A stretch of DNA of 42,879 nucleotides from UHGV virus genome UHGV-0301147; one strand, 5' to 3'. This stretch comes from a virus. The notes under the pieces were generated by a model. That model was not told where the DNA came from and ran no database searches. It was given only the letters and a program-made list of their open reading frames with translations. The translations under genes and the position numbers were made by a program. Below are positions 1-42,879 of this stretch, piece after piece. Positions within the stretch are counted from its first letter, which is position 1; each line of letters opens with the position of its first letter.

Positions 1-20
1 AAACCACCCGAAGGTGGTTT
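1..20 (-). terminator. Hairpin downstream of the tRNA 3' end (probable tRNA terminator; U-tract reaches the window edge)
   Basis: Perfect inverted repeat aaaccacc / ggtggttt with a 4-nt loop at 1-20, lying 3' of the minus-strand tRNA fragment. Confidence 0.4.
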
Positions 21-64
21 CACGACACTGCTTATTGCTTTGATTTTATTCTTATCTTTCCCAT

Positions 65-119
65 GGTACCCGGAGCGGGACTTGAACCCGCACAGCGCGA
101 ACGCCGAGGGATTTTAAAT
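65..119 (-). tRNA. Partial tRNA-Leu(UAA): anticodon loop through CCA end only; prophage attachment core
   Basis: Reverse complement reads ...ATTTAAAATCCCTCGGCGTTCGCGCTGTGCGGGTTCAAGTCCCGCTCCGGGTACCA: T-arm GCGGG-TTCAAGT-CCCGC, long variable arm, anticodon loop with TAA, CCA end; match to a tRNA stops at ~119 so the 5' half is absent. Confidence 0.7.
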
Positions 120-300
120 TGGTCGCTTTGTGCAATAAATTCAAATAATTATGGCAAATTATCCGGACATAATGGTGTGTATGAATATCAAATAATCATA
201 TAGTTACGACGCGTCTTACTCATCGTCTTCTGAAGGTTTTTGGCAAAAATGGTGATGTTCTGCGCCTTTATGTGACCAAACTGTCAGGAGCAAAGCGAGG

Positions 301-41403: not shown

Positions 41404-41628
41404 ATGCTGCGATGGCAACCGGGAGCAACTCTGCTCTCCGCATTTGATATCAAAATTGGCCGACTCTCGGCCAGCGTCAGGAAACAGACTTTGACCGAGT
41501 CTGATATTGCCCGTGCCTGCAAGGCGGCAGATGACGCAATAAGCTACATAATGAGGAAAGACCATGAGAAGCGATCACGACATAATCACCAGAGAAGAAA
41601 TGGTCGAGCTGACGGGAAGCCCACTTAA
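41404..41628 (+). CDS. Hypothetical protein
   Basis: 74-aa ORF with SD GGAGGA; overlaps the next gene out of frame. Confidence 0.35.
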   Translation: MLRWQPGATLLSAFDIKIGRLSASVRKQTLTESDIARACKAADDAISYIMRKDHEKRSRHNHQRRNGRADGKPT

Positions 41629-41827
41629 ATCAAAGCAATGTGAGGCTCTTCGCCGGGCTGGAATTTTCTTCATGGAAAGGGCTGACGGGCACCCAAAAAC
41701 AACCTGGGGCCATTTCATGAACCCAATAAAATTTCGCAATTTACAGGAGGTGACGACGCGAAAAGATGATGAACCTGATTTTGGAGCAATATTTAATGGC
41801 CGGAAAGAGAAAGAACCCAGCAGATAA
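41564..41827 (+). CDS. Excisionase-like protein (DUF4224 family)
   Basis: 87-aa ORF immediately upstream of and overlapping the integrase gene; MVELTGSPLKSKQCEALRRAGIFFMERADGHPKTTW resembles DUF4224. Confidence 0.6.
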   Translation: MRSDHDIITREEMVELTGSPLKSKQCEALRRAGIFFMERADGHPKTTWGHFMNPIKFRNLQEVTTRKDDEPDFGAIFNGRKEKEPSR

Positions 41828-42812
41828 CTGGATGCCGCCTCGTGTTTACCAGGGCAAAGCGGCCTACGAATTCAGGAATAAAGATAACAAAGCGATACGC
41901 CTGTGCGCATTGGATGCGCCACGATCAGCCGTATGGCTGGCATATGAAAAAGCGGTCGGTGACGAAAAAGAAAGAAATACTTTTCAGGCGCTCGCGGAAC
42001 AATTCATGACCTCCCCTGATTTTATGGATTTGGCAGTCGAAACCAGGAAAGACTACACAAAATATTCCGGAAAAGTTCTGCCTGTCTTCGGGAAGATCGA
42101 CCCGGATAAAATCAAACCTGAACATATTCGGCGCTATATGGATCAACGCGGTTTATCAAGCCGAACTCAGGCAAACAGGGAAAAAAGCTTTATGTCCAGG
42201 GTATTCCGTTGGGGTTATGAACGAGGTTATGTCCAGAGGAATCCTTGTCAGGGAGTTAAGCAGTTTAAAGAGACAGCACGCGAACGTTATATTACGGATG
42301 AAGAATATCAGGCCGTTTATGAAGTATCTCCTGATGTTGTTCGCGTGGCAATGGAGATTGCCTACTTATGCGTGGCCAGACAGAGTGATGTACTTTCATT
42401 GCAGAAAGACCAGCTGTTCGATTCCGGGATCTACATTCGTCAGGGAAAAACCGGCGTTAAGCAAATCAAAGCCTGGTCGCCTCGTCTGCAGAAAGCGATA
42501 GCTCTGGCTCGTTCTCTACCATTAAAACCGGGAATCAGTAGCCTGTTTGTGATTCATCAAACTACCGGAGGCAAGTACACCCGTGATGGTTTTAACTCTC
42601 GTTGGCGTGATGTCAAAGCGGCAGCACAGGAAAAATATCCTCATCTGCAAATAGACTTCACATTTCATGATCTGAAAGCAAAAGGTATCTCTGATCTGGA
42701 AGGCAGCCTGGAAGAGAAGCAAGCAATTTCCGGGCATAAGAACCCACGACAGACAGCAGCATATGACCGAAAAGTTAAAGTAGTGCCCGTAGTTGGTGGC
42801 CAGAGAAAATGA
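41766..42812 (+). CDS. int: Tyrosine integrase (lambda Int family)
   Basis: 348-aa ORF at the prophage end; QGKTGVKQIKAWSP and C-terminal HDLKA ... Y resemble lambda Int; true start probably an internal Met. Confidence 0.9.
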   Translation: MMNLILEQYLMAGKRKNPADNWMPPRVYQGKAAYEFRNKDNKAIRLCALDAPRSAVWLAYEKAVGDEKERNTFQALAEQFMTSPDFMDLAVETRKDYTKYSGKVLPVFGKIDPDKIKPEHIRRYMDQRGLSSRTQANREKSFMSRVFRWGYERGYVQRNPCQGVKQFKETARERYITDEEYQAVYEVSPDVVRVAMEIAYLCVARQSDVLSLQKDQLFDSGIYIRQGKTGVKQIKAWSPRLQKAIALARSLPLKPGISSLFVIHQTTGGKYTRDGFNSRWRDVKAAAQEKYPHLQIDFTFHDLKAKGISDLEGSLEEKQAISGHKNPRQTAAYDRKVKVVPVVGGQRK

Positions 42813-42879
42813 ATGATGATGCGTCCAGAGAAAAATCATCTTCGGACGCATCTTCGGAAATGAAAAAGAAGATACAAAA

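What the first reader, a model, noticed from the sequence alone, without database searches (positions are those of the whole stretch)
42817..42867. Hairpin and short direct repeats immediately after the integrase stop
GATGCGTCC ... GGACGCATC forms a 9-bp stem with a 17-nt loop, followed by a repeated ATCTTCGGA element. These could be a terminator or integrase arm-type sites near the unseen right att.
Basis: seen in the sequence. Interest (0 to 1): 0.2.

Follow-up and report, generated by a model that had tools for sequence, protein, structure and literature searches.

The report
Integrase arm-binding sites beside leuZ attachment site
The two short repeats just after the integrase gene are very probably the sites where this prophage's lambda-like integrase grips the arm of its attachment site next to the host leuZ tRNA gene; this is an ordinary feature, and the overlapping hairpin is real but is not a terminator.

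Summary
A 9-bp stem (42818-26 / 42844-52, 17-nt loop) and two exact CATCTTCGGA copies 12 bp apart (42837, 42849) lie just after the int stop (42812).

The window is a prophage in E. coli leuZ (tRNA-Leu UAA). Its last base abuts the 119-126-bp att identity block, which is also window 1-119.

The direct repeats are best read as lambda P'-type tandem arm sites for Int:
- About 40 Int relatives (60-99% identity) carry 2-4 tandem repeats at the same place, in at least eight motif variants (ATnTnnnGAA).
- Complete phage attPs (mEp390, ZF40, Fostie) have an inverted copy at +42 to +44, and mEp390 and ZF40 a direct copy at +105 to +107, from the anticodon loop.
- The window has 7/9 matches at exactly +44 and +107 (joint p about 1e-5).
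- Int has a lambda-like fold including the N-terminal three-strand-plus-helix domain, and that domain co-varies with the motif.

The hairpin is thermodynamically strong (-21.4 kcal/mol, z -4.9). It is conserved only in the CATCTTCGGA lineage, lacks a U-tract and matches no Rfam family. It is not a terminator. It may be an int-mRNA 3' stem-loop or a by-product.

This is a new member of a known kind, of low interest.

The parts
41796..42812 (+). int: lambda-family heterobivalent tyrosine integrase, 338 aa (RefSeq start; the longest ORF starts at 41766)
   Evidence: ORF list and RefSeq annotation of the identical locus. Pfam Phage_integrase plus Phage_int_M. A family profile aligns residues 61-324 to lambda Int 74-343, E 5e-15. 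The AF2 model has mean pLDDT 85.5, with N-terminal strands 17-19, 23-27 and 33-38 plus helix 43-53 and a flexible linker at 56-59. The best fold match is full-length lambda Int 1z1b_A over 364 columns.
41564..41827 (+). DUF4224 gene overlapping the int start; probable excisionase (recombination directionality factor)
   Evidence: Pfam DUF4224, E 1e-14. A homologue sits directly upstream of int in all 37 relatives tested. It is annotated 'excisionase' in mEp390, Fostie and ZF40. The function is inferred.
42837..42846 (+). Arm-type site, P'-like copy 1 (CATCTTCGGA), -159 from the anticodon loop
   Evidence: It is 100% conserved in Raoultella (L012, Int 86%) and Enterobacter (L013, 82%) while the flanks diverge.
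42849..42858 (+). Arm-type site, P'-like copy 2 (CATCTTCGGA), -147 from the anticodon loop
   Evidence: Same calls as copy 1. The 12-bp spacing matches ZF40 (12), Fostie (13) and mEp390 (7-13).
42815..42855 (+). Imperfect inverted repeat / hairpin (core stem 42818-26 with 42844-52); the right arm is the junction of the two arm sites
   Evidence: dG -21.4, z -4.9. Eight core pairs are kept in 16 haplotypes. One C/U change gives G-C or G.U on the + strand only, and there is no compensatory double change. No Rfam family matches and there is no + strand terminator.
42874..42879 (.). First 6 nt (ACAAAA) of the att identity block, which continues as window 1-119 in the excised circle and in attR
   Evidence: Comparison of the attR and attL flanks in E. 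coli Z0117EC0036.
1..119 (-). att identity block: leuZ-operon terminator hairpin (1-20) plus the 3' half of tRNA-Leu(UAA) (64-119), ending at the anticodon loop (TTTTAAA, 112-118), the probable crossover region
   Evidence: The same block follows window base 42879 in the lysogen and runs on into intact leuZ-cysT-glyW. A minus-strand terminator is detected and a tRNA match is found. The reconstructed empty attB is present intact in 3791 of 5426 E. coli genomes. The crossover position itself is inferred.
162..170 (-). Distal-arm inverted arm-type copy (ATGTCCGGA on the minus strand, 7/9), P2-like, +44 from the loop
   Evidence: The inverted copy sits at the same offset in mEp390 (+43), Fostie (+42) and ZF40 (+44).
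225..233 (+). Distal-arm direct arm-type copy (GTCTTCTGA, 7/9), P1-like, +107 from the loop. A further CGTCTTACTC lies 12 bp upstream at 212-221
   Evidence: The direct copy sits at the same offset in mEp390 (+107) and ZF40 (+105).
33..45 (-). IHF-consensus-like site (AATCAAAGCAATA, 1 mismatch) between the P'-like sites and the core
   Evidence: Consensus match only; the function is inferred.
139..206 (+). Three IHF-consensus-like sites (139-151, 186-198, 194-206) flanking the inverted distal copy
   Evidence: four sites in the 599-nt attP region against 0.69 expected from the window's density. Consensus matches only.

Best explanation
The two CATCTTCGGA repeats are the int-proximal (lambda P'-type) tandem arm-type binding sites of this prophage's attachment site.

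The element is a temperate phage integrated in E. coli leuZ (tRNA-Leu UAA). After excision, the window end joins the window start to give the attP described below.

**Order of features in the reconstructed attP:**
1. int stop
2. two tandem arm sites
3. an A-rich stretch
4. the phage-borne copy of the leuZ terminator and tRNA 3' half, with an IHF-like site
5. the crossover at or near the anticodon loop
6. an IHF-like site
7. an inverted arm copy (+44)
8. IHF-like sites
9. a direct arm copy (+107)

**Proposed mechanism:**
- The small N-terminal domain of the heterobivalent Int (three strands plus a helix) binds these arm sites.
- Its C-terminal domains bind and cut at the core.
- Host bending proteins fold the arms back, so that Int bridges arm and core, as in lambda.

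**Shown here:**
- the site anatomy
- the positional homology with relatives
- the Int fold
- the co-variation of motif and N-domain

**Inferred:**
- actual binding of Int to the repeats
- the crossover point
- a role for IHF

**The hairpin:**
- It is a lineage-specific inverted repeat whose right arm is the junction of the two arm sites.
- It is not a terminator.
- Its most likely role, if it has one, is a stem-loop at the 3' end of int mRNA (sense strand) that limits 3' exonucleolytic decay. About 0.3.
For: 1. **Location.** Window base 42879 is followed in the lysogen by the same block as window 1-119, then the rest of leuZ-cysT-glyW. The empty site exists in 3791 of 5426 E. coli genomes.
2. 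**Integrase.** Int is lambda-like end to end. This rests on PDB sequence hits, an AF2 N-domain of three strands plus a helix with a flexible linker, and a top Foldseek hit to full-length lambda Int over 364 columns.
3. **Family-wide anatomy.** Phages mEp390, Fostie and ZF40 (Int 63-64% identical) share one order of features: int stop, tandem repeats, terminator, tRNA-Leu 3' half ending at the anticodon loop. About 40 genomic relatives show the same arrangement up to the tRNA. Eight repeat motifs all fit ATnTnnnGAA.
4. **Position test.** Tandem copies lie at -159/-147 (window), -160/-148 (ZF40), -158/-145 (Fostie) and -169 to -138 (mEp390). An inverted copy lies at +44, +44, +42 and +43 in the same four. 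A direct copy lies at +107, +105 and +107 in the window, ZF40 and mEp390; none was found in Fostie. The window's two 7/9 matches at the predicted offsets have joint p of 1.4e-5, or 1.8e-4 with +/-5 nt tolerance.
5. **Paired pattern.** CRTCTT-N6-CRTCTT occurs only twice in 42.9 kb, once in each arm, against 0.02 expected. This pattern was chosen post hoc.
6. **Footprint.** In protein-found relatives L012 and L013 the 22-nt tandem block is identical while the flanks diverge.
7. **Co-variation.** At matched C-terminal identity of 0.70-0.80, N-domain identity is 0.75 for same-motif pairs and 0.49 for different-motif pairs.
8. **IHF-like sites.** They are enriched in the attP region, 4 against 0.69 expected.
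9. **Agreement with lambda.** The layout matches the lambda scheme of arm sites, IHF sites and N-terminal-domain binding (PMC4880445).
Against: - No binding data exist for any member of this Int group.
- The window's distal copies are degenerate (7/9 each).
- The upstream DUF4224 (putative Xis) also diverges between motif groups. Co-variation alone therefore cannot separate Int from Xis as the binder.
- The P'-like sites lie about 150 bp from the presumed crossover, farther than my recollection of lambda's P'1-P'3 at roughly +50 to +90 (not checked here). This needs extra bending that is only inferred.
- Pfam finds no arm-binding-domain family in residues 1-60.
- The exact-match scan of viral contigs is conserved by construction and adds no independent support for the repeats.
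Confidence: 0.85

Rival explanations
1. The hairpin is an intrinsic (Rho-independent) terminator for int.
For: A strong GC-rich stem lies directly after the stop codon.
Against: - There is no U-tract; the stem is followed by UUCGGAAAUGAAAAAG.
- The scan finds no + strand terminator here. The only one found is the minus-strand leuZ-operon terminator 25 nt downstream.
- There is no hairpin at this place in mEp390, Fostie, ZF40 or most genomic relatives.
Confidence: 0.04
2. The hairpin is a functional RNA stem-loop in the int mRNA 3' UTR (exonuclease barrier or processing site). It is superimposed on the DNA arm sites, so the same bases serve twice.
For: - Folding z-score is -4.9.
- Eight core pairs are kept in all 16 haplotypes, although the loop and flanks vary.
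- The only stem change (C to U) keeps pairing as G.U on the + strand but gives A.C on the minus strand. The minus-strand RNA of the commoner type does not fold.
- A 7-nt loop deletion in E. whittamii keeps the stem.
- The spacer CGC between the two sites is invariant in all 20 tRNA-linked hits even when left free in the search. Spacers vary in the other motif groups.
Against: - There is no compensatory double change.
- z-scores for the non-E. coli haplotypes are weak, -0.9 to -2.6.
- The hairpin is restricted to one lineage.
- The right arm is constrained anyway by the arm sites.
- No Rfam family matches.
Confidence: 0.3
3. The hairpin has no function of its own. It is the remnant of a small inverted duplication of the arm-site junction, kept because the lineage is young.
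For: - The left arm is an 82% inverted copy of the site junction.
- The same stretch holds another local duplication, CCAGAGAAAA at 42800 and 42825.
- The hairpin is absent from other motif groups.
Against: The left arm ATGCGTYC is invariant in haplotypes whose neighbouring bases differ at many positions. The Int genes of these haplotypes are only 82-86% identical to the window's.
Confidence: 0.35
4. The left stem arm is a further, inverted arm-type site, or the two stem arms are half-sites of a dimeric DNA-binding protein.
For: An inverted repeat could serve as a pair of half-sites. The 22-nt template scores 12/20 on the minus strand at 42812.
Against: - The reverse complement of the left arm keeps only G(G/A)ACGCAT, not the CTTCGGA part that defines the motif. 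The family-invariant T4 is also lost in the commoner haplotypes (by inspection).
- The 7-nt deletion in L011 changes half-site spacing by two-thirds of a turn.
Confidence: 0.08
5. The direct repeats bind the excisionase (the DUF4224 protein), not Int.
For: The DUF4224 gene is always adjacent and also diverges between motif groups: 35-56% identity between groups, 77-98% within the window's group.
Against: - By my recollection (not checked here), lambda's Xis sites lie on one arm only, next to the inverted P2 site.
- Here the same motif occurs on both arms in the lambda P1 / P2 / P'1-3 orientation pattern.
- The tandem copies lie on the int-proximal arm, where lambda has only Int sites.
Confidence: 0.06

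Closest known systems
Bacteriophage lambda attP P' arm (P'1-P'2-P'3 arm-type Int sites)
   Same: - Tandem direct roughly 10-bp repeats about one helical turn apart lie next to the 3' end of int.
- On the other arm, an inverted copy lies nearer the core and a direct copy farther out.
- IHF-like sites lie between arm sites and core.
- Int has the lambda fold, including the N-terminal domain (PMC4880445).
- The orientations of lambda P1, P2 and P'1-3 are recalled from the lambda attP sequence, not tested here.
   Different: - There are two copies rather than three.
- The motif is unrelated to lambda's.
- The sites lie about 150 bp from the crossover, because a 119-126-bp tRNA/terminator block sits between them and the core.
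- The target is a tRNA anticodon loop, not an intergenic attB.
- The distal copies are degenerate.
attP of phages mEp390, Fostie and ZF40 (closest sequenced relatives, Int 63-64% identical)
   Same: The target (tRNA-Leu UAA 3' half plus terminator), the order of elements and the offsets of arm copies are the same. The ZF40 motif ATATTAGGA matches the window's ATCTTCGGA at 7 of 9 positions.
   Different: The arm motifs differ: AATGGCGAA, ATTATGAA and ATATTAGGAA. None of the three has the hairpin. The mEp390 record annotates only the 121-bp identity block as attP. I found no description of arm sites for these phages.
Haemophilus phage HP1 attP (from memory, not checked here)
   Same: A lambda-family Int integrates at the anticodon region of a tRNA-Leu gene. 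The phage/host identity block is long and includes the tRNA 3' part. Int sites are spread over arms several hundred bp long.
   Different: The Int lineage and site sequences differ. The similarity is recalled, not tested.
Lambda sib / tI retroregulatory hairpin
   Same: A strong hairpin lies downstream of int.
   Different: - By my recollection (not checked here), sib lies across attP from int, so it is separated from int in the prophage. This hairpin is on the int side in both states.
- Most haplotypes have only a 9-10-bp stem, which is too short for a typical RNase III site.
- There is no U-tract.

Membership tests
Lambda-type arm-type Int binding sites (heterobivalent tyrosine recombinase attP) | Adjacent integrase of the lambda Int family with a separate N-terminal arm-binding domain | tested here: met
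   A family profile aligns to lambda Int 74-343. The AF2 N-domain has three strands plus a helix and a flexible linker at 56-59. The top fold hit is full-length lambda Int over 364 columns. Pfam itself has no hit in residues 1-60.
Lambda-type arm-type Int binding sites (heterobivalent tyrosine recombinase attP) | Two or more tandem direct copies of a roughly 10-bp motif, about one helical turn apart, in the arm next to int | tested here: met
   CATCTTCGGA at 42837 and 42849, 12 bp apart. The same arrangement occurs in about 40 relatives.
Lambda-type arm-type Int binding sites (heterobivalent tyrosine recombinase attP) | Further copies of the same motif on the other arm, including an inverted one | tested here: met
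   An inverted 7/9 copy at +44 and a direct 7/9 copy at +107. These are the offsets seen in mEp390 and ZF40, and for the inverted copy also in Fostie. Joint p is 1.4e-5. The copies are degenerate.
Lambda-type arm-type Int binding sites (heterobivalent tyrosine recombinase attP) | Sites lie outside the phage/host identity (crossover) region and differ from the core sequence | tested here: met
   The identity block is 42874-42879 plus 1-119. The sites lie at 42837-42858, 162-170 and 225-233.
Lambda-type arm-type Int binding sites (heterobivalent tyrosine recombinase attP) | Motif co-varies with the Int N-terminal domain among relatives | tested here: met
   N-domain identity is 0.75 for same-motif pairs and 0.49 for different-motif pairs at matched C-terminal identity. 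The test is confounded by phylogeny and by parallel divergence of the putative Xis.
Lambda-type arm-type Int binding sites (heterobivalent tyrosine recombinase attP) | Bending-protein (IHF) sites between arm sites and core | tested here: inconclusive
   Four consensus matches with at most 1 mismatch, against 0.69 expected, in lambda-like positions. These are consensus matches only.
Lambda-type arm-type Int binding sites (heterobivalent tyrosine recombinase attP) | Direct binding of the Int N-domain, and a requirement for recombination | not testable with these tools
   Needs EMSA or footprinting and att-site mutagenesis.
Intrinsic (Rho-independent) terminator | GC-rich stem-loop | tested here: met
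   A 9-bp core stem, -21.4 kcal/mol for the extended hairpin.
Intrinsic (Rho-independent) terminator | U-rich tract directly after the stem | tested here: not met
   The following sequence is TTCGGAAATGAAAAAG. The scan reports no + strand terminator.
Lambda sib-type retroregulator | Located across attP from int, so that integration separates it from int | tested here: not met
   The hairpin lies between int and the att block, and so stays linked to int in both the prophage and the excised form.
tRNA-gene prophage att site (anticodon-loop type) | The phage carries the tRNA 3' part, the identity ends at the anticodon loop, and the tRNA is restored at the int-proximal junction | tested here: met
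   The empty attB is found in 3791 genomes. The exact crossover point was not mapped.

The most novel reading that the evidence does not exclude
This Int family keeps one core target, the tRNA-Leu(UAA) anticodon loop. Its arm motif and Int N-domain (and Xis) have diversified into at least eight specificities with fixed geometry. These would form a natural set of mutually orthogonal arm/N-domain modules. Several elements could then sit in tandem at leuZ without cross-excising each other. In the window's lineage the arm sites would additionally be co-opted into a conserved int-mRNA 3' hairpin, so that the same bases act as a DNA site and as an RNA structure.
Probability: 0.25. Interest if true: 0.45.

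Novelty: new member of a known kind. Interest (0 to 1): 0.2.

Why it matters
Practical value is modest. The result defines the full functional attP of a prophage carried by about 8% of complete E. coli genomes (440 of 5426). That attP spans roughly 42837 through the att block to window 233, about 400 bp, not just the 119-126-bp identity block that annotations mark. It also gives a ready comparative set of eight arm motifs paired with their N-domains. That set could be used to study or engineer arm-site specificity in heterobivalent integrases. It does not change how such systems are understood.

Tried and rejected
- **Megablast against phages.** The int end of the window found nothing. tblastn was needed to find relatives.
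- **ARAGORN.** It finds no tRNA in the window, because only the 3' half is present.
- **Single-motif counts.** CATCTTCGGA with at most 1 mismatch and CRTCTTC are not enriched window-wide. Only the paired or positional tests are informative.
- **A priori 22-nt template scan.** It places the left-arm hits among the top 13 of 85,716 positions, which is only suggestive (about 0.06 such hits expected in the arm by my estimate).
- **Exact-match scan of viral contigs.** It is conserved by construction, so I used it only for the flanks and the left stem arm.
- **Looser scan.** It returned mostly unrelated hits. Only the 20 tRNA-linked ones were used.
- **Contiguous attP for the CATCTTCGGA group.** None was found. 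L075, L076, L086 and L080 continue into other DNA after the anticodon loop.
- **E. coli distal arms.** They are at least 99% identical in 428 of 455 records and so are uninformative.
- **Rfam.** Only the tRNA and sub-threshold terminator-like hits matched.
- **Structure job with locus-derived sequences.** A protein search was used instead.
- **Inverted arm-site reading of the left stem arm.** Rejected, because the defining CTTCGGA part is not kept.
- **sib-like reading.** Rejected on position.
- **Simple residue-to-base code between the N-domain and the motif.** None emerged.

Full report
**1. Observation**

The last 70 bases of the window read TGA ATGATGATGCGTCCAGAGAAAAATCATCTTCGGACGCATCTTCGGAAATGAAAAAGAAGATACAAAA.

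- The int stop codon is at 42810-42812.
- GATGCGTCC (42818-26) pairs with GGACGCATC (42844-52) across a 17-nt loop.
- This stem is the core of a 17-nt imperfect inverted repeat, 42815-31 / 42839-55, 82% complementary.
- The direct repeat is 10 nt, CATCTTCGGA, at 42837 and 42849, 12-bp spacing.
- As RNA the region folds at -21.4 kcal/mol against -9.4 +/- 2.4 for shuffles, z -4.9, with 0/200 shuffles as good.

**2. Where this lies**

The window starts with a terminator hairpin (1-20) and the reverse complement of the 3' half of tRNA-Leu(UAA) (64-119), which ends at the anticodon loop.

An E. coli genome that is 100% identical over the int end shows what follows window base 42879. It is exactly the same block, continuing into intact leuZ-cysT-glyW-pgsA.

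At the other junction the host flank shares six more bases, ACAAAA, so the duplicated block is 119-126 bp.

A reconstructed empty site is present intact in 3791 of 5426 complete E. coli genomes.

The window is therefore a prophage in leuZ, cut at its att repeats. The finding sits on the int-proximal arm, 15 bp from the identity block.

**3. The integrase**

Int (41796-42812, 338 aa) has Pfam Phage_integrase and Phage_int_M domains. It matches lambda Int in the PDB.

A 29-sequence family profile aligns residues 61-324 to lambda Int 74-343 at E 5e-15. That leaves about 60 N-terminal residues where lambda has its arm-binding domain.

An AlphaFold2 model built from 56 homologues has mean pLDDT 85.5. 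It predicts strands 17-19, 23-27 and 33-38 and helix 43-53, followed by a low-confidence linker at 56-59.

Its best PDB match is full-length lambda Int (1z1b_A, E 4e-14, 364 aligned columns). Truncated lambda Int 75-356 aligns over about 285 columns. This supports a lambda-like heterobivalent Int. In lambda, the N-terminal domain binds arm-type sites in the P and P' arms, with IHF, Xis and Fis sites between arms and core (PMC4880445).

**4. Relatives**

tblastn found phages with contiguous attP: mEp390, Fostie and ZF40, with Int 63-64% identical.

All three show the same order: int stop, tandem direct repeats, terminator hairpin, tRNA-Leu(UAA) 3' half ending at GGGATTTTAAAT, then the distal arm.

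A scan of species-representative genomes gave 62 loci. In nearly all with a complete int end, 2-4 tandem repeats 11-13 bp apart follow the stop codon.

At least eight motifs occur:

| Motif | Where found |
|---|---|
| CATCTTCGGA | window, E. whittamii, Raoultella, Enterobacter |
| ATCTTCTGAA | (genomic relatives) |
| ATATTCTGAA | (genomic relatives) |
| ATATTCGGAA | (genomic relatives) |
| ATATTAGGAA | ZF40 and others |
| ATATTATGAA | Fostie and others |
| ATATAGTGAA | Xenorhabdus, Arsenophonus, Providencia |
| AATGGCGAA | mEp390 and others |

All fit ATnTnnnGAA. More distant Ints on other tRNAs (ST64B, KpF5, Chris1) show the same plan.

**5. Position test**

Offsets below are measured from the end of the anticodon-loop TTTTAAA.

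| attP | Tandem copies | Inverted copy | Direct copy |
|---|---|---|---|
| window | -159 / -147 | +44 | +107 |
| ZF40 | -160 / -148 | +44 | +105 |
| Fostie | -158 / -145 | +42 | none found |
| mEp390 | -169, -156, -145, -138 | +43 | +107 |

In the window these distal copies are ATGTCCGGA (minus strand, 162-170) and GTCTTCTGA (225-233), each 7/9.

Matches of at least 7/9 occur at 1.2e-3 per position. Hitting both predicted offsets therefore has p of about 1.4e-5, or 1.8e-4 with +/-5 nt tolerance.

The pattern CRTCTT-N6-CRTCTT occurs only twice in the window, once per arm, against 0.02 expected. That pattern was chosen post hoc.

The orientation pattern is tandem direct next to int, inverted near the core, and direct farther out. 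This is the pattern of lambda P'1-3, P2 and P1, which I recall from the lambda attP sequence.

IHF-consensus matches are enriched, 4 against 0.69 expected. They fall between arm sites and core.

**6. Footprint and co-variation**

In Raoultella (Int 86%) and Enterobacter (82%), both found by protein similarity, the 22-nt tandem block is identical to the window while the neighbouring bases differ widely.

Int N-domain residues are group-specific. At matched C-terminal identity of 0.70-0.80, N-domain identity is 0.75 for same-motif pairs and 0.49 for different-motif pairs.

One caveat applies. The upstream DUF4224 gene, annotated excisionase in the three phages, is also always present and also diverges between groups. 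Co-variation alone does not separate Int from Xis. The two-arm geometry favours Int.

**7. The hairpin**

- It is absent from mEp390, Fostie, ZF40 and the other motif groups.
- Within the CATCTTCGGA group, 16 haplotypes keep eight core pairs.
- The one variable stem position (C or U) pairs as G-C or G.U on the + strand but would be A.C on the minus strand. There is no double compensatory change.
- The minus-strand RNA of the commoner haplotype does not form the hairpin.
- E. whittamii has a 7-nt loop deletion that keeps the stem.
- With the spacer left free in a collection scan, all 20 tRNA-linked hits have CGC.
- The reverse complement of the left arm keeps only G(G/A)ACGCAT and not the CTTCGGA part, so it is not an inverted arm site.
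- There is no U-tract, no + strand terminator call and no Rfam family.

The terminator reading is rejected. A sib-like role is rejected on position. A sense-strand int-mRNA stem-loop is possible (about 0.3). A by-product of a local inverted duplication is about equally likely.

**8. Verdict**

The direct repeats are P'-type arm sites of a lambda-like attP that targets leuZ (confidence 0.85). This is a new member of a known kind. The hairpin is real and lineage-conserved, but its function is not established. Interest is low (0.2). The family-wide diversification of arm motifs on a constant core is the only mildly unusual aspect.

Noticed in passing
window 1-119 and 42874-42879: The window is cut exactly at the prophage's att repeats: one copy of the 119-nt block is at its start and none at its end. 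The true identity block is 6 nt longer (ACAAAA, 42874-79) than the copy at the window start.
   Followed up: yes
L075, L076, L086 (IMG/VR contigs), just after the anticodon loop: In these E. coli-type contigs the P'-side arm and tRNA 3' half are followed by a different element, not by the rest of leuZ or by this phage's distal arm. Judged by eye only, that element seems to carry its own integrase gene on the opposite strand. This suggests tandem elements at leuZ.
   Followed up: partly
E. coli collection: About 30% of complete E. coli genomes (5425 minus 3791) lack an intact leuZ/yecA junction, so the site is often occupied. Only 440 carry this integrase. PMC7067040 also mentions integrative elements at leuZ.
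   Followed up: partly
L012, L013, L003-L005 and many others, between the tandem repeats and the terminator; window 42859-42873: Relatives share an element of the form GATTTCAnnCA(C/T)AAAAAAACC, often a TGA-N6-TCA palindrome, between the arm sites and the terminator. The window and E. whittamii have AAAAAGAAGATAC there instead. It might be a bending-protein site. Unexplained.
   Followed up: no
window 42800-42809 and 42825-42834: CCAGAGAAAA occurs twice, 25 bp apart: once as the last int codons and once in the hairpin loop side. This hints at a small local duplication of the gene end.
   Followed up: no
L011 (Escherichia whittamii), equivalent of window 42831-42837: A 7-nt deletion shortens the hairpin loop from 17 to 10 nt. 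It changes the first repeat's leading C to G and keeps the stem and both ATCTTCGGA cores.
   Followed up: partly
L085, L089 (IMG/VR), downstream of the two repeats: A third, degenerate tandem copy (CGCTTCGGAAATG / CGTTTCAGAAATG) follows 13 bp after the second repeat. Copy number therefore varies within the lineage.
   Followed up: no
window 42865-42874 (minus strand): TATCTTCTTT on the minus strand is a weak inverted match to the arm motif, next to the att block. It pairs with ATCTTC of repeat 2. It is not conserved in the non-E. coli haplotypes.
   Followed up: partly
window 41564-41827 and 41796: The DUF4224 gene overlaps the int start by 32 nt (RefSeq start 41796; the longest ORF starts at 41766). 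DUF4224 is the conserved int-upstream gene that is annotated as excisionase in related phages.
   Followed up: partly
window versus NZ_CP098214.1: The prophage in strain Z0117EC0036 is about 780 bp longer than the window, although it is 100% identical at the int end. The window therefore comes from a different strain or variant.
   Followed up: no
window 42522-42851 (minus strand): A 109-aa ORF antisense to int starts inside repeat 2. No promoter-like site was found nearby. It is probably spurious.
   Followed up: no
mEp390/Fostie att block (L003 2562-2682, L004): Their phage-borne tRNA 3' half differs from E. coli leuZ by paired changes in the T-stem (GAGTGGG...CCCACAC against GAGCGGG...CCCGCAC). 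Integration in E. coli would therefore give a hybrid but still base-paired tRNA.
   Followed up: no
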